64,000 bases of DNA from Escherichia phage phi92, in sequence record NC_023693.1. The stretch is one strand, 5' to 3'. Below are positions 51,939 through 64,000 of this stretch, one piece after another (positions within the stretch are counted from its first letter, which is position 1; each line of letters opens with the position of its first letter). The notes beneath the pieces were generated by a model that worked only from the letters and a program-made list of their open reading frames with translations, did no database searches and had not been told where the DNA came from. Position numbers and translations under genes: made by a program.

Positions 51939-52154
51939 TATTTTGAAAATTTTTATTTTTATAAAAAGGGGTGTGGGTTTCATGTACGGAAATTCACCCT
52001 CTGCACAGTATACCCAGAGTAAGTATTATTCTATACTCTGTTAATAAAGTATTTAATTTGTTTGTTGGACTATGGTATCTGGTTTTTAAAAGACACATTA
52101 TCTCTTAACTACTATTTATAACAGAACAGTAAAATCATTTTTATAAAAAGGACA

Positions 52155-52355
52155 AAATTATTTAAAGTTTTTACTAGATTTTTGGCTACAAATTTTGAAA
52201 ATGAAAAGTTCAAGTTTGGTCAAAATTATTTAAAGTTTTTGTACGTATTTCTATCCAGATTTTGAAAATGAAAACTTCAATTTTTTAAAAATTCCCCAGT
52301 TTATTTAAAGTTTTTTTGCCTTTTTCCGTAGAAAAATCAAAAATGAAAAGTTCAA
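52155..52355. repeat. three tandem imperfect direct repeats (iterons, about 70-75 bp)
   Basis: Each unit contains TTATTTAAAGTTTTT ... TTTGAAAATGAAAA(G/C)TTCAA. Confidence 0.6.
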
Positions 52356-52378
52356 TTTCGTGTTTTTATGGGTGTGCG

Positions 52379-52500
52379 GATGATAATCATTCTCATTTGT
52401 AAATGAGAATCATTATCATTTAATTATGTAAGTGATAATCATTCTCACTAAGAGAATGAGAATCATTAGCAAATGAGAATTTTTCTCATTTAGAGAATAA
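52379..52500. promoter_or_regulatory. cluster of palindromic operator-like sites (Fur-box-like)
   Basis: GATAATCATTCTCATTTGTAAATGAGAATCATTATC near-perfect 36-bp palindrome, plus GATAATCATTCTCA...GAATGAGAATCATTAGC and AAATGAGAATTTTTCTCATTT. Confidence 0.45.
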
Positions 52501-52753
52501 CGCGCAGGGGTGGTGTTTGTCTCGCGCTCCCGTGTCCCCTCGCCATACAATAAGAATAGCATAACCAACAACAAAAGCAAGCGATTATTTTTATCTTTAC
52601 ATTTCTTTACAAATTTATTTTAGACGAGCTACCGGCGATCAACCTTCCAACCAGTAGTGCCCTGGTATGTTAGCCCCGCCTTTACGCCGTGGGGGTGGCG
52701 CTTCCTCTTCTGTATGTAAAACAGTATAAGCCCGATCCCTGGGCTTGTCAAGA

Positions 52754-53020
52754 TTATTTTTTGTTTTCTTGCCAGGATAGGACACCTAACCAAAAATACA
52801 TGTCGCCCCGCGCCCCTGGTGGGATCTTGCTTTCCCCGCCGCCACTGCAAGCCCATAGATAACCATTTGCGAACGTATCAAAATGATCTATCTCTTCCAC
52901 CTTATGATCGCCCAGGTTGAGAACGGTTTCAACCTTTAAGCCCGTTGCGCTTGCTACCTGGTGCACCGTGCCGCCTTGCCAGCCCAATGAGTGCATGAGG
53001 TGTGAAGTAGTATTTGTCAT
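52754..53020 (-). CDS. hypothetical ORF in GC-rich island (uncertain)
   Basis: 88 aa ORF with weak RBS; local GC content visibly higher than the surrounding phage DNA. Confidence 0.25.
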   Translation of the reverse strand: MTNTTSHLMHSLGWQGGTVHQVASATGLKVETVLNLGDHKVEEIDHFDTFANGYLWACSGGGESKIPPGARGDMYFWLGVLSWQENKK

Positions 53021-53131
53021 GGTATCGCCCTTTCTTTGATGTGCGCCCTGGTTGGCGCGGTAGAAAGATAATAGCCCTTTCCTTTATAGATAGCAAGCAA
53101 AAAAGAAATGAAAAAAGATTAAAAAAAGGGG

Positions 53132-53773: not shown

Positions 53774-54046
53774 ATGGCATCATATAGCGCATCAATGATC
53801 GTAATGGGTATCACTGGTAAACCTATGTGCGGTGGCGGATCTTTCGCTAATATTAATATTGATGGGCGTTTATCCCTGGATGCAGCGATCACCGTGGCAC
53901 GGGAAACATTTAAAAAAGAATGTAATTTCAATAAGCAAGATTATTTAGGTTTCGCTATTGAAAAAACCGCGCGCTTTGTGGATTATAAAAGCCCGAAAAT
54001 GATCGACACTACACTAAAAGCGCAAGATGTAGCGTTTTTGCTTTAA
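53774..54046 (+). CDS. hypothetical early protein
   Basis: 90 aa ORF downstream of cassette 1. Confidence 0.45.
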   Translation: MASYSASMIVMGITGKPMCGGGSFANINIDGRLSLDAAITVARETFKKECNFNKQDYLGFAIEKTARFVDYKSPKMIDTTLKAQDVAFLL

Positions 54047-54049
54047 GGT

Positions 54050-54109
54050 TTGACACTGAAAAATAATTGGGTAATATATACCACATAAGGCGGGAAATGG
54101 TTTCCCGCC
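54050..54109 (+). promoter_or_regulatory. early promoter + leader hairpin (cassette 2)
   Basis: TTGACA, 16 bp, TAATAT, then GGCGGGAAA-TGG-TTTCCCGCC. Confidence 0.55.
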
Positions 54110-54134
54110 AGGCCATCAAAGAAAGGGTAACACA

Positions 54135-54497
54135 ATGAGCAAGCAAATCAATACTATCATGTTAAACCTGGTATCTTTCCGCGACGACGTGAAAAATCTT
54201 TCGCGTGAAGCAGTGGATGCACGGATCGAAAGCTATCGCACGCAGATCGCAACATTGCCGCTAAAATGTGATCAACATGCCGCTAATATGATGCTTAATG
54301 CTATGCTTAAAAAGATGATTCAGTGTGATCTTACCCTGGCTTATGAATATGCTGGCGATCTCTTTGTAACGTATAATAAGCCCGTTCCAGGTATGAGCAC
54401 CACGGAAGAATTGCATGCCTTAAATCTGCGACAAGATGCATGGGATAACATGCGCCGTGTTATGGTATGGGTAGAAAGCGGTAAAATTTACGAATAA
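54135..54497 (+). CDS. hypothetical early protein
   Basis: 120 aa ORF, RBS aagaaaggg. Confidence 0.45.
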   Translation: MSKQINTIMLNLVSFRDDVKNLSREAVDARIESYRTQIATLPLKCDQHAANMMLNAMLKKMIQCDLTLAYEYAGDLFVTYNKPVPGMSTTEELHALNLRQDAWDNMRRVMVWVESGKIYE

Positions 54498-54503
54498 AAA
54501 CGG

Positions 54504-54557
54504 TTGACATTGCACTAAAACCTGATAAGCTATCTTAAAGCGGGAATTGTTCCCGCT
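54504..54557 (+). promoter_or_regulatory. early promoter + leader hairpin (cassette 3)
   Basis: TTGACA, 16 bp, TAAGCT, then AGCGGGAA-TTG-TTCCCGCT. Confidence 0.5.
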
Positions 54558-54575
54558 TACATAGGATAAAACTTT

Positions 54576-54722
54576 ATGAAACAATATGTAATGAGTATTC
54601 ACACCAAAAACGGCGCTACTGTTACGACTCCGGCACGGTTTGCACTTGTAAACCGTTGCAAGAGACTAAAACGAGAGTTAAAAAATAACCGTGCAACGGG
54701 CTTTAAACGCTGGGGAGGATAA
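54576..54722 (+). CDS. small basic protein (48 aa)
   Basis: MKQYVMSIHTKNGATVTTPARFALVNRCKRLKRELKNNRATGFKRWGG; its end provides RBS ggagga for the next gene. Confidence 0.4.
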   Translation: MKQYVMSIHTKNGATVTTPARFALVNRCKRLKRELKNNRATGFKRWGG

Positions 54723-54724
54723 TC

Positions 54725-54985
54725 TTGTTTTTTCTAAAAGTTTTTGATAATGTGATCGCTTTTGAACATGCTACAACGTTCAACCTGGCGAGATACGCTA
54801 TCAGGTTTAAAGATAATGTTTATCCCCGTGCTGGCGGCGGTTACACTATTTTTAATCATCGTAATGCGCAACTAACAGATATAACGAATCCAGATCCTGG
54901 AGTGTATCGCATAGGCTGGCTACCGTCAAAAGACGCTGCAAGCATGTTTAAGGTGTGTAAACTACTAACAGAAGAGGCGAACTAG
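54725..54985 (+). CDS. hypothetical early protein (TTG start)
   Basis: 86 aa; TTG start 5 nt after RBS GGAGGA; translationally coupled to the preceding small ORF. Confidence 0.4.
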   Translation: MFFLKVFDNVIAFEHATTFNLARYAIRFKDNVYPRAGGGYTIFNHRNAQLTDITNPDPGVYRIGWLPSKDAASMFKVCKLLTEEAN

Positions 54986-54986
54986 C

Positions 54987-55541
54987 ATGGGGCGTGAATA
55001 TGTGATCCAGTCCTGGGTAAAGCATGATGCTAATGATCCGCGCATAATACCAGACGACATGATCGATCACATGGTAGGGTATAGCGGGGAGCAGATAGGA
55101 AATCGAGCGGCAAAGAGCAACGGCAACACCAGGACGCGATCCGTTCGCCCTGGATGGCTGGCGAATGGTAACGCTGACATTGCAAGCGCCGCAGATCCAA
55201 GCGATGATGCTAAAAATAATCCCTTATACAGCATTGATCCGGCTTTTAAGGTGTTAGAAGAGTATCCCGCTAAATTAGCCGCACTAGATAAGGCATACGA
55301 AGAAAAGCGCATGGCATGGACTGTATACAACACCGCTAAAATGGTGCTAGATGCAAAATTGATTAAAGCCCAGGAGAAGATCAATAAACTTGTTACCATA
55401 GCGCAAGAGGAAGACCAGGACGACCAGGAGGAAGAGGAAGAAATCATGCCTAACCTGGAAGAGGAAGAGATCCAGCCATACATGCCGACGGAAGAGGAAA
55501 AAAGACAAGCCTTAAAAAATTACGAAAATTGTATTGTGTAA
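54987..55541 (+). CDS. hypothetical protein with strongly acidic C-terminus
   Basis: 184 aa ending QEEDQDDQEEEEEIMPNLEEEEIQPYMPTEEE. Confidence 0.45.
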   Translation: MGREYVIQSWVKHDANDPRIIPDDMIDHMVGYSGEQIGNRAAKSNGNTRTRSVRPGWLANGNADIASAADPSDDAKNNPLYSIDPAFKVLEEYPAKLAALDKAYEEKRMAWTVYNTAKMVLDAKLIKAQEKINKLVTIAQEEDQDDQEEEEEIMPNLEEEEIQPYMPTEEEKRQALKNYENCIV

Positions 55542-55544
55542 GGC

Positions 55545-55600
55545 TTGACATATGCAAACAAGCCCCGTAATATATACCACATAGAGCGGGGCAACGCCTC
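55545..55600 (+). promoter_or_regulatory. early promoter + weaker leader hairpin (cassette 4)
   Basis: TTGACA, 17 bp, TAATAT, then GGGGC-AAC-GCCTC. Confidence 0.45.
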
Positions 55601-55621
55601 AAAGGTGAAATAAAAAATCAC

Positions 55622-55649
55622 TTGACACCTGAAATCAGTAAGCTATAAT
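55622..55649 (+). promoter_or_regulatory. consensus sigma70 promoter (no hairpin)
   Basis: TTGACA, 16-bp spacer, TATAAT (perfect consensus), tandem to cassette 4. Confidence 0.55.
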
Positions 55650-55686
55650 GCTTATATAAATTAAAGCGTTACTAAGGAATAAAATC

Positions 55687-56052
55687 ATGGCTAAAAATAT
55701 CAATGTTTCTGCTTATGCTACCCTGGCTAACACTGCTAAAATTGAACTATCCAGCATTGAAGCGGTACATATTAGCGCCCGTCGCTGGTTTCAAAAGTCT
55801 TATGGTAATACTTATTTCTCTTTGATGGTTGACGTTGAGATCGGCGGTAAACTGATTGAAGTCGTTAACGTTCCGTTTCAATATGGTTATGGTGATCATT
55901 TTGATACCGTCGCCCTGGAAGAGTTTAGCAAGGTTATCAACCTGGAAGGTAAAGACTTTTCAAATTATGCTTACCTTTCCCGTTTTTGCCGTGACAATGG
56001 GATCGCTGTATACAGTCATGCAAGCGATGTTAAACGTAAAAAAGATTTATAA
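55687..56052 (+). CDS. hypothetical early protein
   Basis: 121 aa ORF, RBS aaggaa. Confidence 0.45.
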   Translation: MAKNINVSAYATLANTAKIELSSIEAVHISARRWFQKSYGNTYFSLMVDVEIGGKLIEVVNVPFQYGYGDHFDTVALEEFSKVINLEGKDFSNYAYLSRFCRDNGIAVYSHASDVKRKKDL

Positions 56053-56058
56053 AAAGCA

Positions 56059-56116
56059 TTGACAGCACGAATAAAAAGCATATAATACTTATATCGAGAG
56101 CGGGAATAGTTCCCGC
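56059..56116 (+). promoter_or_regulatory. early promoter + leader hairpin (cassette 5)
   Basis: TTGACA, 16 bp, TATAAT, then GCGGGAA-TAG-TTCCCGC. Confidence 0.55.
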
Positions 56117-56140
56117 CTCACTGAAAAAGAGATTAACATC

Positions 56141-56380
56141 ATGGCTAAATCTAAAATGTACAACGGTCACAAAAATAAAACTCATTGGAATGTAAGCCTT
56201 TGGATCAACAACGATGAAGGTTTTTATAATCTTGCGCGTGAATTTATCGCAGCTAACACCAATAAGAATGACGCAGCGCGGGATATGATGTTATTTCTTG
56301 AAAGTATGGATCAAGATAAAACGCCAGACGGTTACAAGTTCAGTAAAACTGCAATCCGTGCCGCTATGGTAGGAATGTAA
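56141..56380 (+). CDS. hypothetical early protein
   Basis: 79 aa ORF. Confidence 0.45.
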   Translation: MAKSKMYNGHKNKTHWNVSLWINNDEGFYNLAREFIAANTNKNDAARDMMLFLESMDQDKTPDGYKFSKTAIRAAMVGM

Positions 56381-56389
56381 TAAAATAGC

Positions 56390-56449
56390 TTGACACTGTT
56401 TTTTATTCTGGTATAGTTTATCACATAGGGCGGGAAATGGTTTCCCGCC
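56390..56449 (+). promoter_or_regulatory. early promoter + leader hairpin (cassette 6)
   Basis: TTGACA, 16 bp, TATAGT, then GGCGGGAAA-TGG-TTTCCCGCC. Confidence 0.55.
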
Positions 56450-56471
56450 AAATCAAAGAAAGGTTATAATT

Positions 56472-56699
56472 ATGGCTATCGTTATTGTTCGCGTATCCGG
56501 TACGGTTGGAAGCTCCCAGGTAGTAGCAGTTATCACAGAGAAGAAAGGGGATGATCTTCACTCTTCCTTGAATAGCTGGGCGGTCGCTAATTTTGGTCAG
56601 TGGTCGAGCGTCGAGTATATCGAATCCTACCAGGTGCCGACGATTAGCCTAACCGATCTAAATGTTGATCGCTTGTTGTGCCTGGATGCATTAAACTAA
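56472..56699 (+). CDS. hypothetical early protein
   Basis: 75 aa ORF. Confidence 0.45.
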   Translation: MAIVIVRVSGTVGSSQVVAVITEKKGDDLHSSLNSWAVANFGQWSSVEYIESYQVPTISLTDLNVDRLLCLDALN

Positions 56700-56707
56700 A
56701 AATAATC

Positions 56708-56764
56708 TTGACAAGATAACTAAAATTAGTAAAATGTAATTCATAGGGCGGCAATAGTGCCGCT
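56708..56764 (+). promoter_or_regulatory. early promoter + leader hairpin (cassette 7)
   Basis: TTGACA, 16 bp, TAAAAT, then GGCGGCA-ATAG-TGCCGCT. Confidence 0.55.
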
Positions 56765-56785
56765 CATAGTGAGAGAGATTATCAA

Positions 56786-57001
56786 ATGGCTAATATCCGC
56801 ACACTGTTAAAAAATGCAAAGCAGGTTTTATTTTCTGATCACGATCATTTCAATAAAGACATTACAGGCGTGAAAAATCTTAAAGATGTAAAGGATGTAA
56901 TAGGTATTCGCGGATCTTTACGTAAAGGTGACATATACGGTAACAAGGTGCAATATAAACTGTCAAAAGATTATGATTTTACTTTGACATTTATTTCATA
57001 A
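56786..57001 (+). CDS. hypothetical early protein
   Basis: 71 aa ORF. Confidence 0.45.
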   Translation: MANIRTLLKNAKQVLFSDHDHFNKDITGVKNLKDVKDVIGIRGSLRKGDIYGNKVQYKLSKDYDFTLTFIS

Positions 57002-57007
57002 AACCGC

Positions 57008-57068
57008 TTGCAATACTGCAAAAATAAAGTAAACTGTATTCATCAAGGCGGTGGAATAGCCCACCGCC
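57008..57068 (+). promoter_or_regulatory. early promoter + leader hairpin (cassette 8)
   Basis: TTGCAA, 16 bp, TAAACT, then GGCGGTGG-AATAGC-CCACCGCC. Confidence 0.5.
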
Positions 57069-57092
57069 TAACAAAGAGAAGAGGAAAACATC

Positions 57093-57263
57093 ATGATCAC
57101 TTTCGCTACCCGTGAAGCCGCTCGCAACGTTGCACGTAAAGTTAATGCCGCCAACCTGGGCGCTACGCTTAAAGCCCCGGTAAAAGATGAATCAGGTAAA
57201 TGGATCTTTCCTGGTCTGCGTCACGCTGATAAGCTGGGAACATTAACGTTAAAAAACAAATAA
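57093..57263 (+). CDS. small hypothetical protein (56 aa)
   Basis: MITFATREAARNVARKVNAANLGATLKAPVKDESGKWIFPGLRHADKLGTLTLKNK; RBS gaggaa; below track size cut-off. Confidence 0.4.
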   Translation: MITFATREAARNVARKVNAANLGATLKAPVKDESGKWIFPGLRHADKLGTLTLKNK

Positions 57264-57270
57264 TATCCGT

Positions 57271-57329
57271 TTGACAGTAGCATCATTTAGAAGTAAAGTA
57301 ACAACAACGGCGGGGAATGGTTTCCCGCC
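57271..57329 (+). promoter_or_regulatory. early promoter + leader hairpin (cassette 9)
   Basis: TTGACA, 17 bp, TAAAGT, then GGCGGGGAA-TGG-TTTCCCGCC (one G-T position). Confidence 0.55.
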
Positions 57330-57349
57330 AACAATAAAGAGATAAGATT

Positions 57350-57709
57350 ATGAAATCAGTAAAAGCAATTAAAACTTACATTGTGTCGGCTATTTCTTTT
57401 GAAGGTACTACAACAGAAAAAGAAAAGATCACCGAACTGATGCGCCGTTTTAAGTCTGAATACTGGTATCAATCTAATCGTGATCGTTATAATAACAACA
57501 TGGTACAAGCTGTTAAAAGCTGGTTACAAGGTTTACCGTCAGAAATAAATATTGCTTTTAATTATAACGAGATCGATCACTTATTAATCGAATGGAAGTG
57601 TATAAAAGAAACAAGCAAAGAAACAACCGTTACCCGTGAGCGGGAAAATTATTGGTTATATATTGCAAGCATGATCGTAACTTTGGCAAAATATCATAAA
57701 GTAGCGTAA
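57350..57709 (+). CDS. hypothetical early protein
   Basis: 119 aa ORF. Confidence 0.45.
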   Translation: MKSVKAIKTYIVSAISFEGTTTEKEKITELMRRFKSEYWYQSNRDRYNNNMVQAVKSWLQGLPSEINIAFNYNEIDHLLIEWKCIKETSKETTVTRERENYWLYIASMIVTLAKYHKVA

Positions 57710-57723
57710 TCGAGAGGAAAAAC

Positions 57724-57861
57724 ATGAACGCATCACAGCAGATCGAAAAATTCAACCGCAGCAAGGCGCGTAAAGATTGGAACGAAGAGATCACCAAAAA
57801 AGGCGACAAGCGGAACAAAACAAAAAGAGATCGCAGCACAAAAAGATACTGGAACGAATAA
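57724..57861 (+). CDS. small basic protein (45 aa)
   Basis: RBS gagagga; MNASQQIEKFNRSKARKDWNEEITKKGDKRNKTKRDRSTKRYWNE. Confidence 0.35.
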   Translation: MNASQQIEKFNRSKARKDWNEEITKKGDKRNKTKRDRSTKRYWNE

Positions 57862-57867
57862 CAAAAA

Positions 57868-57890
57868 GGGCGCAATAAGCGCCCTTTTAG
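57868..57890 (+). terminator. rho-independent terminator
   Basis: GGGCGC-AATAA-GCGCCC followed by TTTT. Confidence 0.55.
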
Positions 57891-57978
57891 CTTATATAGG
57901 GGCTTGTTACCCATAGGCAATGGTAACGCCAGGGCAAGCCTATAAATCAACGTTAGACGGCTTTACAGGAGCTTTAAA

Positions 57979-58161
57979 ATGAGATTAGAAGAAATAAGCA
58001 AGGCACTAGCCCAGGGGCAAAGGTTATGCGCCAGATATCGTGATCAATATGGCTTCATAACTAGCGGCGTGATCCTGGGGATTGAAGGCAATAAGATTTT
58101 TATTGACACGTTGAAAAACGTTGTATATAGTGACAATATAATCTCAATAAAACATATATGA
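57979..58161 (+). CDS. hypothetical protein
   Basis: 60 aa ORF, RBS aggag. Confidence 0.4.
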   Translation: MRLEEISKALAQGQRLCARYRDQYGFITSGVILGIEGNKIFIDTLKNVVYSDNIISIKHI

Positions 58162-58169
58162 GGCAAGAA

Positions 58170-58571
58170 ATGAAAAAATTATTGATCGCTGGTTTAATCT
58201 CTTTTGGTATGGTTGGAACATCTAGCGCGGCGATATCCTCCACAGTAGCAGAATTAAGCGCCGTTGATGCAATGGAAAACGTCATGCTTATTAATAATGC
58301 GATCCCCGATGAAATCATGGAGGATTCACACATGATCGCTTATGGTGCTGTTACACAACTAACGGCAAAAATAGATAAATCTATTGTTAATGGCTTAAAT
58401 GAAGATGTACCATGTGAAATTATTACCAGTGTGCTGACTACTCAAAATTTTACACCGTGGTTAAAAAGTATTCAAAAAGTACACAGTACAGCCGCAGATC
58501 GTAGCAATGAAAAACTAGTGTCAGCACTTGCAACGTATACCCTAGCAAAATGCACTGAAATAAAAGATTGA
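58170..58571 (+). CDS. secreted/periplasmic protein
   Basis: Start set to MKKLLIAGLISFGMVGTSSAA (signal peptide) with RBS gagg. Confidence 0.45.
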   Translation: MKKLLIAGLISFGMVGTSSAAISSTVAELSAVDAMENVMLINNAIPDEIMEDSHMIAYGAVTQLTAKIDKSIVNGLNEDVPCEIITSVLTTQNFTPWLKSIQKVHSTAADRSNEKLVSALATYTLAKCTEIKD

Positions 58572-58596
58572 CAGCATAGAAAGCACGTTATAAGAT
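58568..58596 (+). promoter_or_regulatory. sigma70-like promoter (no hairpin)
   Basis: TTGACA, 17 bp, TAAGAT. Confidence 0.4.
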
Positions 58597-58618
58597 ACAC
58601 ACAACAAAGGAGAACTAC

Positions 58619-58921
58619 ATGAACGGCATAGCTAAAACGTTTTTTCTTTTTTCTGGTGTAAATGATCCATCAATAAAAGTCGATAGTGTAAAAGAAAACA
58701 ATACTATCACCGCTAAATTGTTTCAAGATGAAACAAATAACGTGCTAATCATTAATCTTAAAGAAATAACGAAAGGTTATTATACTATTGCTTACCATGC
58801 AATCTATCATGCTGGTACTAGTGAGGAAGTGCAAACAAGCAACAACGAAAGCGCGGCGCTACCTGGTGATCTGGTGCTGGGCGTTATCAGTTTAATTGTC
58901 AATGATTTTTTTAAGGAGTAA
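58619..58921 (+). CDS. hypothetical protein
   Basis: 100 aa ORF, RBS aaggag. Confidence 0.45.
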   Translation: MNGIAKTFFLFSGVNDPSIKVDSVKENNTITAKLFQDETNNVLIINLKEITKGYYTIAYHAIYHAGTSEEVQTSNNESAALPGDLVLGVISLIVNDFFKE

Positions 58922-58925
58922 AACC

Positions 58926-59021
58926 ATGCCCTATTTACATTTATTTTTCGGGATCTTATTGTCAGGATCTTTTTTCTTCTGTATACTTGTTTCTATTGTA
59001 AACCACGTTTTAAGACATTAA
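58926..59021 (+). CDS. small membrane peptide (31 aa)
   Basis: MPYLHLFFGILLSGSFFFCILVSIVNHVLRH; RBS aaggag. Confidence 0.35.
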   Translation: MPYLHLFFGILLSGSFFFCILVSIVNHVLRH

Positions 59022-59030
59022 GGAAACAGC

Positions 59031-59150
59031 ATGAAAATTATTCCCGTACAATATAGCGTAATAAATCCAGCATACGAGGAAGGAAGGAAAACAAGCATGG
59101 TTTTATGTTATATTGCTACTATAACCATGTTGTTATATATTGTGTTTTAA
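59031..59150 (+). CDS. small membrane peptide (39 aa)
   Basis: MKIIPVQYSVINPAYEEGRKTSMVLCYIATITMLLYIVF; RBS taaggaa. Confidence 0.35.
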   Translation: MKIIPVQYSVINPAYEEGRKTSMVLCYIATITMLLYIVF

Positions 59151-59179
59151 TAGGTTTTATAGTTGTACGCTTTAAAGGC

Positions 59180-59207
59180 TTGACAATTTTTTGTTATGCT
59201 TTAAAAT
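59180..59207 (+). promoter_or_regulatory. sigma70-like promoter (no hairpin)
   Basis: TTGACA, 16 bp, TAAAAT. Confidence 0.45.
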
Positions 59208-59250
59208 ATATCTTGAAAACGGCAAAGGCCGCAAACAAAAGGGTAAAATT

Positions 59251-59574
59251 ATGAAATCTGTGATCGGTGTTTATTTGGATAACTCTGATTTTTTCTATCA
59301 TCGCGCGCGTTTACTTGATGCTATTGAAATGATAGAATCAGGCTTTAAAGAGTATCGCCTTGCACATGATGACCTGGAAGCATTACAGGGCAATAGTGTT
59401 TTTACATTGCAAGCGAAAGCACTATGCAAAAGCCGGATCGACATTGCGAGCAAAAAGATAGAACGCGGCATGTCCTGGTTGCGCACCGCAGAAATCAACA
59501 TGGGGCAATGGTACGGCGAAAACTTAGAAAATAAACATGCTTTTGTCAATGTAGAAAATATTGAAGATTATTGA
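59251..59574 (+). CDS. hypothetical early protein
   Basis: Start set to ATG (MKSVIGVY) with RBS aaaaggg. Confidence 0.45.
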   Translation: MKSVIGVYLDNSDFFYHRARLLDAIEMIESGFKEYRLAHDDLEALQGNSVFTLQAKALCKSRIDIASKKIERGMSWLRTAEINMGQWYGENLENKHAFVNVENIEDY

Positions 59575-59636
59575 TTGACAGCACACTGAACTGGTAGTAT
59601 ATTGTATCTCATAGAGCGGGGAAATGGTTTCCCCGC
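59575..59636 (+). promoter_or_regulatory. early promoter + leader hairpin (cassette 10)
   Basis: TTGACA, 17 bp, TATATT, then GCGGGGAAA-TGG-TTTCCCCGC. Confidence 0.55.
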
Positions 59637-59656
59637 CTTAAAAGAAGAGATAAGCT

Positions 59657-59941
59657 ATGAAGATCACAAAAGCACTTTCCAACTATGCAGCACGTCGCGG
59701 CTTATGTTTAACCGTTGAAAACCTGGGGAAAGAAGATTTTTTGTGCTTTTGGGAGCTTGAGAATGATAATGAGTGGATCTTCTCTTATTCTATCTGCGAA
59801 GATCAAAACGGTTGTTTATTAACCTGGCGCGGTAATATCTATCTACCGGAAGAAATCAAAGAAGAATTGCCAGGCACGATCATGACTGAGAAACAGCTTA
59901 AGGAAGTGATTAATTTTGTAGGGCAAAACATTAAAAAATAA
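59657..59941 (+). CDS. hypothetical early protein
   Basis: 94 aa ORF. Confidence 0.45.
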   Translation: MKITKALSNYAARRGLCLTVENLGKEDFLCFWELENDNEWIFSYSICEDQNGCLLTWRGNIYLPEEIKEELPGTIMTEKQLKEVINFVGQNIKK

Positions 59942-59942
59942 T

Positions 59943-60000
59943 TTGACACTAGGCAAACAACGTAGTAAAGTTTATCACATAGGGCGGCAATAGTGCCGCT
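59943..60000 (+). promoter_or_regulatory. early promoter + leader hairpin (cassette 11)
   Basis: TTGACA, 17 bp, TAAAGT, then GGCGGCA-ATAG-TGCCGCT. Confidence 0.55.
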
Positions 60001-60022
60001 CACAACTAAAAGAGAAATCAGC

Positions 60023-60217
60023 ATGGCGCTTAAAAAACTAACAAGCAATACTCGTTGGGATGAAATCGACGGGGAAGTATACATTTTCGCCCGTAAACCA
60101 GGTGATCAAAAATGGTCAAAGGCTTTTACTTGCCACCCTGCAACAATAGACCTGATAAAAAGGGAAGGTCTACGTGAAGCAGTAGCGAGAAGTTTACTGA
60201 TCCCTTATAAAAAATAG
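60023..60217 (+). CDS. hypothetical early protein
   Basis: Start set to ATG (MALKKLTSN). Confidence 0.45.
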   Translation: MALKKLTSNTRWDEIDGEVYIFARKPGDQKWSKAFTCHPATIDLIKREGLREAVARSLLIPYKK

Positions 60218-60218
60218 T

Positions 60219-60279
60219 TTGACAATATGCTGTTATCTGGTAAAGTGTACGACATAGGGCGGGGCAATAAGGCAACGCC
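60219..60279 (+). promoter_or_regulatory. early promoter + degenerate leader hairpin (cassette 12)
   Basis: TTGACA, 16 bp, TAAAGT, then GGCGGGGCAATAAGGCAACGCC with only a short GGCG/CGCC stem. Confidence 0.4.
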
Positions 60280-60301
60280 ACACATCAGAAAGGGAAAGAT
60301 T

Positions 60302-60538
60302 ATGACTATAGCAACAGTATTAACCGCCGTTAAAACCGCAGAATCATCCGGCTTGCATGTTGAGATTATAGATCAACCAGGTGGCGATCTCCTTGTCCAG
60401 GTTTACCCGCCGAAAGTAGGGGATGATTATTATTGGTGCTATTCTGATACGTTCGAACAAGTAGACACGAAAGCGATCACGGCTTTTATTTTAAAAGCTA
60501 TTGAAGAAAATAACTTTCATTATAACATCAATCAATAA
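60302..60538 (+). CDS. hypothetical early protein
   Basis: Start set to ATG (MTIATVLTAV) with RBS aagggaaag. Confidence 0.45.
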   Translation: MTIATVLTAVKTAESSGLHVEIIDQPGGDLLVQVYPPKVGDDYYWCYSDTFEQVDTKAITAFILKAIEENNFHYNINQ

Positions 60539-60558
60539 ACCATAAGCGGGGTAGCATC

Positions 60559-60663
60559 ATGTTAGAGAAAATTTTCACGGTTGTAATAGTGGGCCTGGCG
60601 TTATCGGTTGGATTGGTTGCAACTATGGCTAACATGATCCTATCTTCCCACGGTATCGGCTAA
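60559..60663 (+). CDS. small membrane peptide (34 aa)
   Basis: MLEKIFTVVIVGLALSVGLVATMANMILSSHGIG. Confidence 0.3.
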   Translation: MLEKIFTVVIVGLALSVGLVATMANMILSSHGIG

Positions 60664-60677
60664 AAGAGAAACACAAC

Positions 60678-61064
60678 ATGAAAACAGAAATCATTATTGA
60701 AATCATCAACGGTTATAAAGAAGCCTTTATTTTTGCCGAACCAGCGACGGATCACAATGGGGAATATATTGAGAATCTAGACGATTATGATTTTTCTCCT
60801 AGCGCCCTGAAACGTATTACCAGCGATGTGACCGCCTTTTGTAGTGCCAATGTTGCCGCTATCTCTGAGGCAATGAGCGACGGCGCTACAGCAAACCAGA
60901 TCGGGAATGATTTACATTTCACCCGTAACGGTCACGGCGTAGGCTTTTGGGATCGCCCTGAAATATACACTACTAACACCGCCAACCGCCTAACAAATGC
61001 AGCTAAATTAATGCCATCGGTGCATGCTTACATTGGTGAAGATAATTTGATTTATATTGAATAA
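60678..61064 (+). CDS. hypothetical early protein
   Basis: 128 aa ORF. Confidence 0.45.
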   Translation: MKTEIIIEIINGYKEAFIFAEPATDHNGEYIENLDDYDFSPSALKRITSDVTAFCSANVAAISEAMSDGATANQIGNDLHFTRNGHGVGFWDRPEIYTTNTANRLTNAAKLMPSVHAYIGEDNLIYIE

Positions 61065-61070
61065 AAAGTA

Positions 61071-61129
61071 TTGACACCGATCCCCAATATGGTACTATTT
61101 ACCACGTAGGCGGGAAGTGGTTTCCCGCT
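61071..61129 (+). promoter_or_regulatory. early promoter + leader hairpin (cassette 13)
   Basis: TTGACA, 16 bp, TACTAT, then GGCGGGAAG-TGG-TTTCCCGCT (two G-T positions). Confidence 0.55.
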
Positions 61130-61186
61130 AAATGAGAGATTATCATTATGTTCGATATCAGCCTGGACAAATAAGAGATTCCCATA

Positions 61187-61732
61187 ATGAACGCCTTGAT
61201 CGACAAAAAAACCTTTCTTAATAACGCCTACGTTAATGAACTACTTTCATCCGGTCGCTGGGTTAGCCACGGATCTGACCTTCAAACATGGCTAGATGAG
61301 TGCGACGAGGTTCCCGCCGCCTTTTCAGGTAAAAATTTGCAGCAGGTTATAAATGATACTGAATTTTTAAACTTCTTCCGTGAGTGGTTAAGCTGCCGCT
61401 TTGATTTTGCTATGAAATATCTGATCCAAGACATTAACCAACACACGGTTATTCGGCGGGCGGTATACCTAACCCCGGCACAAAAGGCCGAAATATTGCC
61501 CGGTTCTTTTGTTAATGTTGGTAAATATTGGACAGTATCCAGGACTGTGGAGCCATACGGGGCCACCTACACAAAGGATCGGGAGATAGTAACAATCACC
61601 ACAGAGTTAGACCTTAATTCAATCGACCTTATTCAGACGATGATCTCTCGCATGGACTATATTAATGGAGATTATGAAATGGAGATACAAACAAAGGAAA
61701 ACTTACCTGTAAAAATTCTCGCTATAGAATAG
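61187..61732 (+). CDS. hypothetical early protein
   Basis: 181 aa ORF. Confidence 0.45.
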   Translation: MNALIDKKTFLNNAYVNELLSSGRWVSHGSDLQTWLDECDEVPAAFSGKNLQQVINDTEFLNFFREWLSCRFDFAMKYLIQDINQHTVIRRAVYLTPAQKAEILPGSFVNVGKYWTVSRTVEPYGATYTKDREIVTITTELDLNSIDLIQTMISRMDYINGDYEMEIQTKENLPVKILAIE

Positions 61733-61755
61733 CCCGCTGCCCGGCGGGTTTTCTT
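61732..61755 (+). terminator. rho-independent terminator
   Basis: GCCCGC...GCGGG stem followed by TTTTCTT. Confidence 0.5.
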
Positions 61756-61788
61756 ACAGTTTTTTACAATTCTACCTATTGACACCGG

Positions 61789-61839
61789 ATCGCCCTTATA
61801 CTAAGATGTATCACGTAAGGCGGGAAGTGGTTTCCCGCC
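61789..61839 (+). promoter_or_regulatory. early promoter + leader hairpin (cassette 14)
   Basis: TTGACA, 17 bp, TAAGAT, then GGCGGGAAG-TGG-TTTCCCGCC. Confidence 0.55.
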
Positions 61840-61857
61840 AGATATAGGAGTCATATC

Positions 61858-62088
61858 ATGATCGAACAAATTAAACGCGCTGAGGCTATTAACGGTAATG
61901 TGATCTATTTTGTCAACAATAACGAAAAAGGCGTACCATATGCGGCGGTAATAGTACAGCCTGACGGCGATTATTGGTTTACTGTATACGGATCTTATTC
62001 TTTTGGGCGTCCAGTACATGATAAAATTTTGGAAGTAGCTAATCCCACTGGGAAGAATATCACAGTAGAAAAATTCTATGAAAAATAA
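61858..62088 (+). CDS. hypothetical early protein
   Basis: 76 aa ORF, RBS aggag. Confidence 0.45.
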   Translation: MIEQIKRAEAINGNVIYFVNNNEKGVPYAAVIVQPDGDYWFTVYGSYSFGRPVHDKILEVANPTGKNITVEKFYEK

Positions 62089-62163
62089 CTTGCTTTATAG
62101 CCTCTGTTAATTTATAGTTATCGTGTAGGGCAAACAATTTTAAACGGTAAACGAGGAATCTCC

Positions 62164-62547
62164 ATGAGCAATATCATCAACCTGGCGGCGACTGTAAACG
62201 GTAAAGATTTTAACGGCGCTGTAGATCGTGATCCTATGTGGTGCTTATCAGTGTTTAAAGGCGATCTGGTTGAAGTTAGAACAACCGAAGGGTATAGCGA
62301 TGATTATAAATGTGAGATTCATTTGCACAACTGGTACACGGGTAAAACTTATGCGCTGAATCATGCGTTTATCGGGAAAATTGAATATCGCGAGATGATC
62401 GACGAGGAAACCGGGCAAGATTTTAGCGACTATGTTTATATTCGTTCAGAAACATTAGCCGAACGTTTGATCGAGAAAATGAAAGCAAAAAATAAAATTA
62501 ATTTAACTCATTGGATTGATATAACAAACGATCCAGCTTATCAGTAA
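62164..62547 (+). CDS. hypothetical early protein
   Basis: 127 aa ORF, RBS gagga. Confidence 0.45.
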   Translation: MSNIINLAATVNGKDFNGAVDRDPMWCLSVFKGDLVEVRTTEGYSDDYKCEIHLHNWYTGKTYALNHAFIGKIEYREMIDEETGQDFSDYVYIRSETLAERLIEKMKAKNKINLTHWIDITNDPAYQ

Positions 62548-62563
62548 ATAACATTTCATACCA

Positions 62564-62589
62564 GGGCGCTTATTGCGCCCTTTCTTTTT
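62564..62589 (+). terminator. rho-independent terminator closing the early array
   Basis: GGGCGC-TTATT-GCGCCC followed by TTTCTTTTT. Confidence 0.6.
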
Positions 62590-62803
62590 ACCTAAATAAA
62601 GATGATAGCTTTTACCTATCAAAAACGTTCACCGAAAAAAGTGAATAGATCGCGGTATCGAGCTAATCAAGGAGCAGATGAACAACCATACCATGAAGAT
62701 CATAAGGCGCTTACAACGTGTTTTAGACCGCTTATTTTTAATTTCTCAATGTAACTATCGGGCAAAAACAGCCTTTTTCTTGTCTTTCCTCTTAAATGAT
62801 AAT

Positions 62804-63948
62804 CATTCTTATTTATAGCTGATTATTTATGCAATAAACTGCATAATGCAATAATGATAATCATTCTTAACTTAAGACCATCTAACCTATAAAATAATAA
62901 GCTATCTAACTAAATTAAACCTAATTATCTCACTTTTATTTATAACTTACTGTTATTATCTCATTGATAACATTGTATTAAACAACAATAACTAATATAA
63001 ATCATTACTAAGCTAACTATAATCTATCTAACCCTTAAAACTACAATTATAATCTATCAAATTGTTGCACAAAGTAACTATTAAATTGTTAGTAACATTA
63101 CTAAATAATTTACATCCTACTTATTTATGATCTAATCTTTACCTCCCTATCTATTACCTAAATAACCATTTCATGTAGTAATCATTTCATACAATAACTA
63201 TAACAAGAAATATAATTCGCAAGCGTATCATTAGCAGCCTATGCCGGACACATAGGCGGCTAATAATAACGCAACTACACACCCCACATAATAACCATCA
63301 CCGATAGTTATTATTTGTGCTTATGTAGCTTGCAACAATTGCAAGCGCAACAATATACGAGAGTATATTGTATTCCCTTACATTGTTGCGGTGCGTTATT
63401 ATTAGCTAATGTTTAGAACATTGGCTATAATATAAGCTAAATAATAAGCTATGCAATAATAAACATGGTGAATAATGACATTGATGATCATAATGCGCCA
63501 CCCTCCAGGGGGCGCTATGTGTACACAAAGAAATCTTTCTTGTCAAGAAAAATATCATCACTATTGCGCAAAATTATTTACATCTGAATAGATGATTTTT
63601 CATACTATTGCCCCCATAATTATCTTTATTTGTTACCCCTAAATATCCTATTTGTTGAGCCTACTTTCTTAAAAGCGCAATAAATCAGAATTATCTTGAT
63701 TTTTAGTCGGTTTTATAGTATAGAAAATATGTAAATGATAATCATTATCAGCTATCTTCCACGGGTGGCACTATTTCACGCCAGATCATTTCATTTGACA
63801 AGGTGTATATAGATGTTTAGACTTGCCAAGCCATTGATTTACTTAGAATTTATCTGTTTTGTTGTGAGTAGTACCTTTCTTGCTCAGAAAATAATCAAAA
63901 GTCTTATAAGTCATTGAATGATAATGCAAATGATAATTATTCTCATTG
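62804..63948. promoter_or_regulatory. non-coding AT-rich region with four Fur-box-like sites and short repeats
   Basis: AAATGATAATCATTCTTA at 62804 and 62852, AAATGATAATCATTATC at 63733, AATGATAATGCAAATGATAATTATTCTCATTG at 63916; recurring (A)TCTATCTAAC motifs; no ORF of 60 aa or more. Confidence 0.4.
63259..63406. repeat. nested inverted-repeat structure
   Basis: Exact 14-bp inverted repeat GCTAATAATAACGC / GCGTTATTATTAGC enclosing palindrome GCTTGCAA-CAA-TTGCAAGC and inverted repeat CGCAACAAT...ATTGTTGCG. Confidence 0.5.
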
Positions 63949-64000
63949 ATATTTGAGGGGGACGGTCGGCAGAAATCGGGGGGCGCTGAAAATCGCGTTA

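What the first reader, a model, noticed from the sequence alone, without database searches (positions are those of the whole stretch)
52379..52500. Palindromic operator cluster resembling Fur boxes upstream of the early array
Within about 120 bp there are three palindromes built on GATAATCATTCTCA / TGAGAATCATTATC and AAATGAGAA-TTTT-TCTCATTT. Their hexamer composition (GATAAT, CATTAT) matches the classical Fur-box architecture. Related sites recur after the early array at 62.8-63.9 kb, so the early region is bracketed by the same motif. They may be bound by host Fur (iron-responsive early expression or Fur titration) or by a phage regulator of similar specificity.
Basis: partly seen in the sequence, partly recalled or inferred. 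Interest (0 to 1): 0.6.

Follow-up and report, generated by a model that had tools for sequence, protein, structure and literature searches.

The report
Fur-box arrays flanking phage early genes
A virulent E. coli phage carries clusters of DNA sites that look exactly like binding sites for the host iron sensor Fur, placed at both edges of its terminal early-gene block and inside its terminal repeats, and the same sites turn out to make up the unexplained palindromes at phage T5's DNA-injection stop region.

Summary
The window is the right-hand 64 kb of a Justusliebigvirus (phi92/phAPEC8-like). At 52379-52490 there are five 19-bp inverted repeats, not three.

- **Fur match.** Scored with a matrix built from ten validated E. 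coli Fur operators, they reach 17.5-24.6 bits, against 12.8-21.0 for the real operators.
- **Other sites.** Four more sites lie at 62795, 62853, 63734 and 63929. No other site of 14 bits or more exists in a whole genome-equivalent.
- **Position.** By homology, the window ends at the physical genome end. The last two boxes sit inside the 343-bp terminal repeat. Cluster A lies 11.5 kb (7.8%) from that end, at the inner edge of the early-gene array.
- **Conservation.** The arrangement recurs across Stephanstirmvirinae and Vequintavirinae.
- **T5.** Palindromes E, G/H and I at the 7.9% injection-stop region of T5 are the same boxes, including one identical 19-mer. The two phage groups share no detectable proteins in these regions.
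- **No phage Fur.** No Fur homologue was found in either group.

Host Fur is the best candidate binder. The boxes do not sit on conserved promoters, so they are not classical operators of the early array. Their function is inferred, not shown.

The parts
52155..52359 (.). Three AT-rich direct repeats of about 63-75 bp (iteron-like), immediately left of the boxes
   Evidence: family D1, spacing 67 and 75 bp; GC 0.22. Three direct repeats of different sequence occupy the same position in KB57, CR3 and EC152.
52379..52397 (.). Fur-type box A1, GATGATAATCATTCTCATT
   Evidence: PWM 19.8 bits; one mismatch to TGATAATNATTATCA.
52402..52420 (.). Fur-type box A2, AATGAGAATCATTATCATT; forms a 40-bp palindrome with A1
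   Evidence: PWM 24.6 bits. Inverted repeat I5 is 95% complementary. The 19-mer is identical to T5 9577-9595, palindrome G/H.
52431..52449 (.). Fur-type box A3, AGTGATAATCATTCTCACT
   Evidence: PWM 19.2 bits.
52449..52473 (.). Fur-type box A4 (52455-52473, AATGAGAATCATTAGCAAA) with a weaker partner shifted by 6 bp (52449-52467)
   Evidence: PWM 17.5 and 10.9 bits. The 6-bp offset is the arrangement described for Fur arrays (PMC2189734).
52472..52490 (.). Fur-type box A5, AATGAGAATTTTTCTCATT; positional homologue of the proximal box conserved in all relatives
   Evidence: PWM 18.2 bits. In 16 of 17 divergent loci a box lies 182-197 nt (235 nt in one locus with an insertion) upstream of the anchor TAGCCCCGCC...; the Ro1-like L022 has about 930 bp inserted between box and core.
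52499..52720 (.). Conserved non-coding core, GC 0.47, including a tandem TCTTTACA repeat
   Evidence: 70-88% identical in distant Vequintavirinae where the flanks are not alignable. Alignments. No Rfam family. Weak RNAalifold support on either strand.
52723..52751 (-). Conserved sigma-70 promoter reading leftward through the core toward the boxes (TTGACA-17-TATACT)
   Evidence: 11 of 12 match. The -35 and -10 hexamers and the 17-bp spacing are conserved while the spacer diverges in 15 or more phages.
53774..62754 (+). Early array of small ORFs, the block bracketed by the boxes (context)
   Evidence: ORFs; annotations of relatives; terminator at 62563-62581.
62795..62813 (.). Fur-type box B1, AATGATAATCATTCTTATT
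   Evidence: PWM 22.0 bits.
62847..62871 (.). Fur-type box B2 (62853-62871) with a partner shifted by 6 bp (62847-62865)
   Evidence: PWM 15.6 and 12.8 bits.
63658..64000 (.). Right direct terminal repeat; the physical genome end is at 64000
   Evidence: The 343-bp DTR annotated identically at both ends of UAB_1 aligns to 63658-64000 at 96.8%, and that record's last base aligns to window 64000. A 342-bp DTR was reported for BME3 by PhageTerm (PMC12210895).
63728..63752 (.). Fur-type box T1 inside the DTR (63734-63752, contains perfect TGATAATCATTATCA) with a partner shifted by 6 bp
   Evidence: PWM 18.0 and 12.7 bits; zero mismatches to the 15-mer; 248 bp from the right end.
63795..63823 (+). 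Promoter-like site inside the DTR, between boxes T1 and T2 (TTGACA-17-TAGACT)
   Evidence: 10 of 12 match. In the left copy of the DTR it would read into the left-end genes. Function not shown.
63923..63947 (.). Fur-type box T2 inside the DTR (63929-63947, AATGATAATTATTCTCATT) with a partner shifted by 6 bp
   Evidence: PWM 23.9 and 14.3 bits; 53 bp from the physical end.

Best explanation
The palindromes are high-affinity operator-type sites for the host ferric uptake regulator Fur, each a 9-1-9 inverted repeat that would bind one dimer.

A packaged genome carries about 11 strong sites:
- two in each 343-bp terminal repeat;
- two about 1.15 kb inside the right end;
- five at the inner edge of the roughly 10-kb terminal early-gene array.

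Proposed mechanism (inferred). When the linear DNA enters an iron-replete cell, abundant Fur-Fe2+ occupies these arrays. They then act as protein-bound boundary or roadblock elements at the two edges of the terminal early block and at the DNA ends. They would do three things:
- stop the leftward transcript from the conserved promoter at 52751-52723 before it reaches the iterons and the upstream operon;
- damp the promoter in the terminal repeat;
- soak up Fur as the genome copies multiply.

This would make events at the genome terminus responsive to host iron status.

What is shown: the sequence match to Fur sites, their positions and their conservation. What is inferred: Fur occupancy in vivo and every functional consequence.
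For: 1. A PWM built from 10 experimentally supported E. coli K-12 Fur sites gives leave-one-out scores of 12.8-21.0 bits for the real sites and 15.6-24.6 bits for the nine phage sites. Coordinates came from PMC2189734 and sequences were extracted. Sites of 14 bits or more: 10 observed against 0.37 expected.
2. The ryhB operator (AATAATAATCATTCTCATT) and the fhuA operator (TATAATAATCATTCTCGTT) carry the same ATTCTC half-site. The fecI operator carries TGAGAAT.
3. The flanking AA/TT fits the 9-1-9 single-dimer model, and four sites have the partner shifted by 6 bp that is typical of Fur arrays.
4. Specificity control: in 300 kb of E. coli DNA the same threshold finds 14 sites. Ten are the training operators and three more are Chen-predicted Fur sites that were not used in training.
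5. No other site of 14 bits or more occurs in a whole genome-equivalent of about 145 kb.
6. The boxes are conserved in position in 16 of 17 divergent Stephanstirmvirinae and Vequintavirinae loci, on Escherichia, Salmonella, Klebsiella, Cronobacter and Enterobacter hosts. The adjacent iterons differ by genus.
7. Unrelated T5-like phages carry the same boxes, yet tblastx finds no shared proteins. That favours a shared host factor.
8. tblastn finds no Fur homologue in either phage group.
9. A similar 38-nt sequence lies about 150 bp upstream of a TonB-dependent siderophore receptor gene on a Pantoea plasmid.
Against: - No binding or expression data exist.
- The boxes do not overlap a strong, conserved sigma-70 promoter. 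The putative rightward promoter at the proximal box has a variable -11 base and, in this window, no -35 hexamer.
- Sites are discrete and phased: exactly 29 bp apart in several relatives and 17-29 bp apart here. Native E. coli operators are mostly tightly overlapping.
- Pairs of boxes form higher-order palindromes with strong hairpin potential, which Fur binding does not require.
- Placement inside terminal repeats and at about 7.8% from a physical end, as in T5's injection-stop region, points to a role in DNA-end or DNA-entry handling rather than iron regulation.
- The nearly invariant asymmetric proximal box, TGATAAT-C-ATTCTCA, suggests a constraint beyond the Fur consensus.
Confidence: 0.5

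Rival explanations
1. The boxes are cis-acting elements for handling the linear DNA. They would mark the limits of a first-entering terminal segment (an injection-pause signal like T5's iss), or serve in end protection, end pairing or packaging. They would be read by a phage protein, by the ejection machinery or as DNA structure (cruciforms). On this reading the likeness to Fur boxes is incidental, or Fur is only an accessory factor.
For: - Boxes T1 and T2 lie inside the 343-bp terminal repeat, 248 and 53 bp from the physical end.
- Cluster A lies 11.5-11.6 kb from that end, which is 7.8-7.9% of 147,769 bp.
- In T5 the same boxes are palindromes E, G/H and I at 9473-9636. They abut the annotated 'major nick 7.9%' and the calculated first-step-transfer shear point at about 9618.
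- T5-like phages also have a box 120-230 bp from the left end.
- Boxes are phased at exactly 29 bp in several relatives, form higher-order palindromes and have strong hairpin potential (z = -7.25).
- Short direct repeats adjoin the boxes in both phage groups.
Against: - No A1, A2 or dmp homologues are found in the Justusliebigvirus genome-equivalent, and no DnaA boxes lie near cluster A. The T5 machinery is therefore not shared.
- Two-step transfer has never been reported for rV5-like phages in the literature searched.
- It is unknown which end enters first.
- The distance fraction varies: by my own arithmetic from record coordinates, about 7.0% in PHB05 and 8.1% in VEcB.
- A purely incidental match of nine sites to the top of the Fur score range, in two unrelated phage families, is unlikely.
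Confidence: 0.3
2. The boxes belong to an iteron-type replication origin. The three direct repeats would bind a phage initiator, the conserved leftward promoter would supply an activating or primer transcript, and the palindromes would bind an accessory host factor or help the DNA melt.
For: - Three genus-specific direct repeats lie in a 22% GC stretch next to the boxes.
- The same layout of three repeats, then boxes, then core, then an inward-facing promoter recurs in KB57, CR3 and EC152.
- The repeats in Vequintavirinae are rich in GATC.
Against: - No DnaA boxes occur in 52-54 kb.
- The cumulative GC-skew minimum is at about 47 kb, where gene orientation switches, not at 52.4 kb.
- The equivalent T5 region is not where T5 origins were mapped (Davison, 10.1101/866236).
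- This reading does not explain the boxes at 62.8-63.9 kb or those in the terminal repeat.
Confidence: 0.12
3. The boxes act as a Fur decoy. They regulate no phage gene; instead, replicating genomes titrate Fur and de-repress host iron uptake. That would supply iron for the phage's di-iron class I ribonucleotide reductase.
For: - Each genome carries about 11 strong sites plus 4 overlapping sites.
- The phage encodes class I RNR alpha and beta subunits and a glutaredoxin.
- Multicopy Fur boxes de-repress Fur-controlled genes in the Fur titration assay, the method cited in PMC2189734 for recovering several of its listed sites (the assay principle is my own knowledge).
Against: - A decoy needs no fixed position. 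Yet the boxes are held at fixed distances from the core, at block boundaries and in the terminal repeat.
- T5 degrades host DNA within minutes of infection, which would make de-repression of host genes pointless there.
Confidence: 0.07
4. The palindromes are chance products of AT-rich DNA with no function.
For: The surrounding DNA is AT-rich, with GC 0.22-0.30.
Against: - 10 sites of 14 bits or more against 0.37 expected, and 5 against 0.03 for the 19-bp consensus.
- The positions are conserved across subfamilies while the flanking DNA diverges.
Confidence: 0.01

Closest known systems
E. coli Fur operators (ryhB, fhuA, entC, fecI, sufA, cirA; the 19-bp Fur box, 7-1-7 and 9-1-9 models)
   Same: - The sequence class is the same. 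The phage 19-mers score 15.6-24.6 bits on a matrix built from these operators.
- AATGATAATCATTCTCATT, the proximal box in many relatives, differs from the ryhB operator at 2 of 19 positions.
- Partners shifted by 6 bp occur, as in native arrays.
   Different: - The phage sites are not placed over the -35/-10 of an iron-related gene.
- They are discrete and phased at 17-29 bp rather than mostly overlapping.
- They lie in a virulent phage, at the boundaries of a gene block and inside terminal repeats.
Phage T5 'repeat region 3', the injection stop signal region: palindromes E, G/H and I with direct repeat C (Heusterspreute 1987; Wang 2005 annotation; Davison bioRxiv 10.1101/866236)
   Same: - One 19-mer, AATGAGAATCATTATCATT, is identical in both.
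- Both clusters hold 3-5 boxes in a large non-coding region next to short direct repeats.
- Both lie at the inner edge of a terminal block of early genes, 7.8-7.9% from a physical end.
- Both phages have further boxes within a few hundred bp of the DNA ends.
   Different: - No paired DnaA boxes and no A1, A2 or dmp homologues.
- The terminal repeat is 343 bp, not about 10 kb.
- The adjacent repeats are 3 copies of about 70 bp, not 9 copies of about 14 bp.
- Two-step DNA transfer is not known for this phage group.
- The T5 papers read here do not mention Fur.
Fur sites on temperate phages and prophages: sitABCD on lambdoid coliphages, and the nohA/nohB clusters in the Qin and DLP12 prophages
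   Same: Fur-type sites are carried on phage DNA. The nohA site is bound by Fur in gel shifts and lies upstream of a Nu1-like packaging gene (PMC6969025; PMC2189734).
   Different: Those sites control cargo genes or sit in resident prophages as part of the host regulon. Here the phage is virulent and the sites flank non-coding control regions and the DNA termini.
Iteron-type origins with transcriptional activation (plasmid oriV, T7 and T4 origin promoters)
   Same: Direct repeats in AT-rich DNA lie next to a promoter that reads toward them.
   Different: No DnaA boxes, no skew switch at this position, no adjacent initiator gene identified, and the T5 counterpart is not an origin.

Membership tests
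Fur operator (E. coli-type Fur box) | Sequence match to the Fur consensus or weight matrix at the level of validated sites | tested here: met
   Phage sites score 15.6-24.6 bits against 12.8-21.0 bits (leave-one-out) for 10 validated operators. They show 0-3 mismatches to TGATAATNATTATCA, against 0-4 for the real sites.
Fur operator (E. coli-type Fur box) | Inverted-repeat architecture of 7-1-7 or 9-1-9 type, one dimer per unit | tested here: met
   All nine sites are odd-length inverted repeats centred on one base, with AA/TT flanks as in the 9-1-9 model.
Fur operator (E. coli-type Fur box) | Overlapping sites 6 bp apart, allowing binding of several dimers | tested here: inconclusive
   Four of nine sites have a partner shifted by 6 bp, scoring 10.9-14.3 bits. 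The main boxes are instead spaced 17-29 bp apart.
Fur operator (E. coli-type Fur box) | Overlap with the promoter of the repressed gene | tested here: not met
   No strong, conserved sigma-70 promoter overlaps the boxes. Only 9-of-12 promoter-like matches arise from the palindromes themselves, and the -10-like nnGAAT after the proximal box is variable at -11.
Fur operator (E. coli-type Fur box) | Metal-dependent binding by Fur, and fur- or iron-dependent expression | not testable with these tools
   Needs EMSA or footprinting, ChIP, a Fur titration assay and infection of fur mutants.
T5-type injection stop region (repeat region 3) | Cluster of DRC/palindrome units in a large non-coding region at the inner edge of the terminal early block, about 8% from a physical end | tested here: met
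   Identical 19-mer and similar cluster. Cluster A is 7.8-7.9% from the right end, as defined by homology to the annotated DTR of UAB_1.
T5-type injection stop region (repeat region 3) | Paired DnaA boxes in inverted repeats C/D | tested here: not met
   No TTWTNCACA between 48.1 and 64 kb.
T5-type injection stop region (repeat region 3) | A1 and A2 genes in the first-entering segment | tested here: not met
   tblastx of T5 1-11500 against the whole Justusliebigvirus genome-equivalent gives no hits at E of 0.01 or less. Remote homologues could be missed.
T5-type injection stop region (repeat region 3) | Two-step DNA transfer that halts at the site | not testable with these tools
   Needs shear or qPCR entry experiments.
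Iteron-type replication origin | Direct repeats in an AT-rich unwinding region, DnaA boxes or an initiator gene, and a skew switch | tested here: inconclusive
   Repeats and AT-richness are present. DnaA boxes are absent. The skew minimum is at about 47 kb, not here.
Fur-regulated small RNA (RyhB/PrrF-like) | Fur box over the promoter of a structured, terminated sRNA | tested here: not met
   No Rfam match at gathering score, and only a meaningless PrrF hit at E = 7. The rightward promoter is not conserved. RNAalifold gives -15 to -18 kcal/mol over about 230 nt, with one clearly covarying pair (AU in 8 sequences, GC in 7).

The most novel reading that the evidence does not exclude
Arrays of Fur-type boxes may be a shared, convergently used boundary signal that delimits the first-entering, early-gene end of linear phage genomes in Enterobacteria. 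On this reading:
- rV5/phi92-like myoviruses, like T5, deliver or expose a terminal segment of about 8% of the genome first;
- the long-unexplained T5 injection stop signal works through host Fur, or another protein that reads Fur-type boxes, bound at palindromes E to I;
- the boxes in the terminal repeats capture or protect the DNA ends.

This would tie phage DNA entry to the host iron sensor.
Probability: 0.2. Interest if true: 0.9.

Novelty: new variant of a known kind. Interest (0 to 1): 0.7.

Why it matters
Fur boxes are textbook elements, but they are known on phage DNA only as switches for cargo genes of temperate phages.

What is different here:
- Top-scoring Fur-type sites are a conserved structural feature of virulent phage genomes.
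- They sit at both edges of the terminal early-gene block and inside the terminal repeats.
- They recur in two unrelated phage groups, rV5/phi92-like and T5-like.

If Fur binds them, two consequences follow:
- The host iron sensor is wired into the earliest steps of infection. That bears on phage therapy in iron-limited tissue.
- A concrete, testable candidate emerges for the cis-acting palindromes of the T5 injection stop signal. [quoted passage not shown]

A fur mutant, an iron chelator and a gel shift would test this.

Tried and rejected
1. **tRNA or known RNA family.** ARAGORN finds none. Rfam finds only a distant group I intron, and the low-score hits over the palindromes are miRNA-like noise.
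2. **Fur-controlled sRNA made from the conserved core.** The rightward promoter is not conserved. Consensus folding is weak on both strands, with one clearly covarying pair. Not supported, although the conserved leftward promoter suggests that some transcript is made.
3. **Small protein in the core.** Indels are not multiples of three and the conservation is contiguous. Rejected.
4. **Phage-encoded Fur.** tblastn with E. coli Fur finds 31 records, none of them rV5-like or T5-like.
5. **A DNA-binding protein shared with T5's terminal region.** tblastx finds no hits.
6. **DnaA and IHF sites near cluster A.** None relevant.
7. **Origin by GC skew.** The skew follows transcription direction and its minimum is at 47 kb.
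8. **BLAST of the cluster against E. coli genomes and plasmids.**
   - The matches are too short to be very informative.
   - One useful hit lies upstream of a Pantoea TonB-dependent receptor gene.
   - A 20-nt exact match in IncF-type plasmids covers the spacer, not a box.
9. **The DTR annotation in the BME3 record.**
   - It is offset by about 73 bp, and the record carries a triplicated segment.
   - I relied instead on the clean, identical terminal repeats of UAB_1.
10. **Other E. coli regulators considered from memory.** These were ArgR, Zur, Cra, CRP, TyrR, NsrR and PerR. Their consensus sequences differ in symmetry or in the core bases. This was not tested with matrices.
11. **Literature.** No paper in the searchable library describes Fur boxes in T5-like or rV5-like phages.

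Full report
**What the window is.** The region 51800-53200 is 96-98% identical to many Justusliebigvirus genomes (phi92/phAPEC8-like myoviruses, Stephanstirmvirinae), such as JohannJBalmer, alia, VEcB and BME3. The finding lies in a 1.8-kb stretch (51939-53773) with almost no annotated genes, between rightward genes. In phage alia the palindrome is annotated only as 'repeat_region', with no function given.

**Checking the observation.**
- The sequence is as described.
- There are five units, not three, of the form AATGA(T/G)AATCATT(C/A)TCATT. The 19-mers start at 52379, 52402, 52431, 52455 and 52472.
- Boxes 1+2 and 3+4 also form larger palindromes. As single-stranded DNA the 125 bp fold far better than shuffles (z = -7.25).
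- TGAGAATCATTATC at up to 2 mismatches occurs 11 times against 0.97 expected. All 11 hits lie at 52.4 kb or 62.8-63.9 kb.
- The classical 19-bp Fur consensus at up to 3 mismatches occurs 5 times against 0.03 expected.
- The recurrence after the early array is real: sites at 62795, 62853, 63734 (a perfect TGATAATCATTATCA) and 63929.

**Are they Fur-quality sites?**
- I took the centre coordinates of the strongest sites in footprinted, gel-shifted or otherwise regulated E. coli K-12 promoters from Chen et al. 2007 (PMC2189734).
- I fetched those stretches of MG1655 and recovered the sites.
- I built a symmetric 19-bp matrix from ten of them: fepA-fes, fepD-entS, entC, sufA, ydiE, cirA, fecA, fecI, ryhB and fhuA.
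- Leave-one-out scores of the real operators are 12.8-21.0 bits. The nine phage sites score 15.6-24.6 bits.
- Four phage sites have a weaker partner shifted by exactly 6 bp, the arrangement Chen et al. describe for Fur arrays.
- I had worried that the recurrent G/C at the fourth position of each half-site (TGAGAAT / ATTCTCA) pointed to another protein. That worry is removed: the ryhB and fhuA operators contain ATTCTC and fecI contains TGAGAAT.
- In the window, 10 sites reach 14 bits against 0.37 expected from first-order Markov shuffles.
- In 300 kb of E. coli control DNA the same threshold finds 14 sites. Ten are the training operators and three more are Chen-predicted sites that were not used for training.
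- Across a whole genome-equivalent (JohannJBalmer 1-50 kb and 88.5-144.8 kb, plus the window) no further site reaches 14 bits.

**Conservation.**
- A distant BLAST showed that the DNA just right of the boxes (about 52472-52720) is 70-88% identical in Vequintavirinae whose flanks no longer align. These include PVP-SE1, CR3, KB57 and GAP31, and the region is unannotated in all of them.
- Alignment of 17 non-redundant loci shows a conserved module with four parts:
  - three direct repeats of about 65-75 bp, whose sequence differs by genus (AT-rich here, GATC-rich in CR3, KB57 and EC152);
  - one to five Fur-type boxes, phased at exactly 29 bp in several phages;
  - a proximal box 182-197 nt (235 nt in one locus with an insertion) from an invariant anchor in 16 of the 17 loci;
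  - a non-coding core of about 230 bp and a minus-strand sigma-70 promoter. Its -35 and -10 hexamers and 17-bp spacing are conserved while the spacer is not (window 52751-52723, 11 of 12 match).
- The one exception, the Ro1-like locus L022, keeps its boxes but has about 930 bp inserted between them and the core.
- The bracketing is conserved too. In the Seunavirus EC152 the boxes at 254 and 283 are followed by a 10-kb array of small genes. A 1.6-kb non-coding region then carries boxes at 11178, 11673 and 11714. A Mydovirus-like contig shows a second pair about 10 kb from the first (L020).

**What the boxes are not.**
- They are not tRNA or any Rfam family.
- The core is not coding: its indels are not multiples of three.
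- The core has only weak consensus structure on either strand, with one clearly covarying pair.
- The boxes do not sit on a conserved promoter. The -10-like nnGAAT after the proximal box varies at the critical -11 base, and this window lacks a -35 there.
- The first early-array gene starts 1.3 kb further right, behind its own promoters.
- The cluster is therefore not a classical operator of the early array.
- No DnaA boxes lie nearby, and the GC-skew minimum is at 47 kb. An origin is possible but unsupported.

**The genome ends.**
- The BME3 paper reports 342-bp direct terminal repeats found with PhageTerm (PMC12210895). That record's annotation is offset and partly duplicated.
- Salmonella phage UAB_1 annotates identical 343-bp repeats at both ends of its record.
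- The UAB_1 repeat aligns to window 63658-64000 at 96.8%, and the last base of that record aligns to window base 64000.
- By homology, the window therefore ends at the physical right end of the genome.
- Boxes T1 and T2 lie inside the terminal repeat, 248 and 53 bp from the end. They are therefore also present at the left end.
- Boxes B1 and B2 lie about 1.15 kb from the right end.
- Cluster A lies 11.5-11.6 kb from the right end, which is 7.8-7.9% of 147,769 bp.
- The early array is thus a terminal block, transcribed toward the end and bracketed by the boxes.

**The T5 connection.**
- BLAST with the 125-bp cluster finds 589 phage records, mostly rV5-like and T5-like phages of Escherichia and Salmonella.
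- In T5 (AY587007.1) the matches are the annotated palindromes E, G/H and I with direct repeat C, in 'repeat region 3'.
- They score 18.9, 24.6 and 20.1 bits. The 19-mer at 9577-9595 is identical to window 52402-52420.
- They sit just before the annotated 'major nick 7.9%' (9661-9668). They span Davison's calculated first-step-transfer shear point of about 9618.
- T5, pork29 and Seafire also carry a box of 17-18 bits at 120-230 bp from the left end. It lies inside dmp, so coding constraint may explain its conservation.
- The T5 papers I read describe this region only as repeats and palindromes and propose DnaA. Fur is not mentioned. Searches found no paper on Fur boxes in these phages.
- tblastx of T5 1-11500 against the whole Justusliebigvirus genome-equivalent gives no hit. 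tblastn with Fur finds no homologue in either group.
- Two unrelated phage families that share hosts but no detectable proteins here thus carry the same motif in the same kind of place. The neighbouring repeats, by contrast, are lineage-specific. This pattern is best explained by a conserved host protein, and Fur is the only E. coli regulator I know with this consensus.

**Most likely mechanism.**
- I consider it very likely that Fur binds these sites in vitro. This is an inference from the scores.
- My working model is inferred. Fur-Fe2+ occupies about 11 strong sites per genome and forms bound boundary elements at both edges of the terminal early block and at the DNA ends.
- These elements would stop the conserved leftward transcript before the iterons, damp the promoter-like site in the terminal repeat (63795-63823) and sequester Fur as copies accumulate.
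- The phage encodes a di-iron class I ribonucleotide reductase, so an iron link is plausible, but it is not shown.
- The main rival is that the boxes are DNA-entry or DNA-end signals and that the Fur likeness is secondary. The terminal placement, the phasing, the higher-order palindromes and the T5 parallel all support it.
- The two readings are not mutually exclusive.

**Verdict.**
The Fur-box reading is supported at the sequence and comparative level. The reading of the cluster as an operator upstream of the early array is not supported.
- The context is new, and it turns the T5 injection stop signal into a directly testable question.
- I rate this a new variant of a known kind, with interest 0.7.

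Noticed in passing
window 63658-64000: By homology to the identical 343-bp terminal repeats annotated at both ends of Salmonella phage UAB_1, this is the right direct terminal repeat. Window base 64000 is then the physical genome end, and the window is the last 64 kb of a linear genome.
   Followed up: yes
window 52499-52751: A conserved non-coding core of about 230 bp, with a tandem TCTTTACA repeat at about 52594-52613. Next to it is a minus-strand sigma-70 promoter (TTGACA-17-TATACT) conserved across Stephanstirmvirinae and Vequintavirinae. There is no Rfam family and only weak structure support. It may give an uncharacterised leftward transcript.
   Followed up: partly
window 52155-52359; L008 ~2590-2790; L006 ~2590-2770; L044 ~60-190: Three iteron-like direct repeats always lie to the left of the boxes. 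Their sequence is genus-specific: AT-rich here and GATC-rich in Vequintavirinae. That suggests a lineage-specific binding protein.
   Followed up: partly
window 35177-35451 (-): Group I catalytic intron (Rfam RF00028, 70.6 bits, E = 6.6e-16).
   Followed up: no
L043 (T5 AY587007.1) 231-249; L045 124-142; L046 17-35 and 218-236: T5-like phages carry a Fur-type box of 17-18 bits at 120-230 bp from the left physical end, inside the 3' part of dmp. Seafire has another box 17 bp from its PhageTerm-defined end.
   Followed up: partly
L005 3107/3136/3165/3194; L006 2832/2861/2890; L018; L019: In several relatives the boxes are spaced exactly 29 bp apart, about 2.75 helical turns. Native E. coli Fur operators are not reported to show this regularity.
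   Followed up: no
L022 6125-7085: A Raoultella phage Ro1-like contig has about 930 bp inserted between the box pair and the conserved core. The two parts of the module can therefore be separated.
   Followed up: no
L037/L038 (BME3 PP239276.1): The BME3 record carries three copies of the terminal-repeat region. Record positions 1-788 repeat at 146168-146956. Its 'DTR-L' feature is offset by about 73 bp relative to the repeat defined in UAB_1. This looks like an assembly or annotation artefact.
   Followed up: yes
E. coli K-12, Table 4 of PMC2189734: Strong Fur clusters, one of them confirmed by gel shift, lie 133 and 233 bp upstream of nohB and nohA. These are the Nu1-like packaging genes of the cryptic lambdoid prophages DLP12 and Qin. 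It is another case of Fur sites next to phage packaging regions.
   Followed up: no
L029 (E. coli plasmid NZ_CP020521.1) ~2500-2530: Small E. coli plasmids of about 13 kb carry AATGAGAATTATTATCATT next to TTGTCA promoter-like hexamers, upstream of small hypothetical genes and a MarR-family gene.
   Followed up: no
window 62870-63200: A very AT-rich non-coding stretch between the early array and the terminal repeat, with many short TATCTAAC-like repeats.
   Followed up: no
window 52754-53020 (-): An 88-aa minus-strand ORF with a GWQGGT-HQV motif ends just before the conserved leftward promoter. Vequintavirinae have an unrelated ORF of about 60 aa at the same place.
   Followed up: partly
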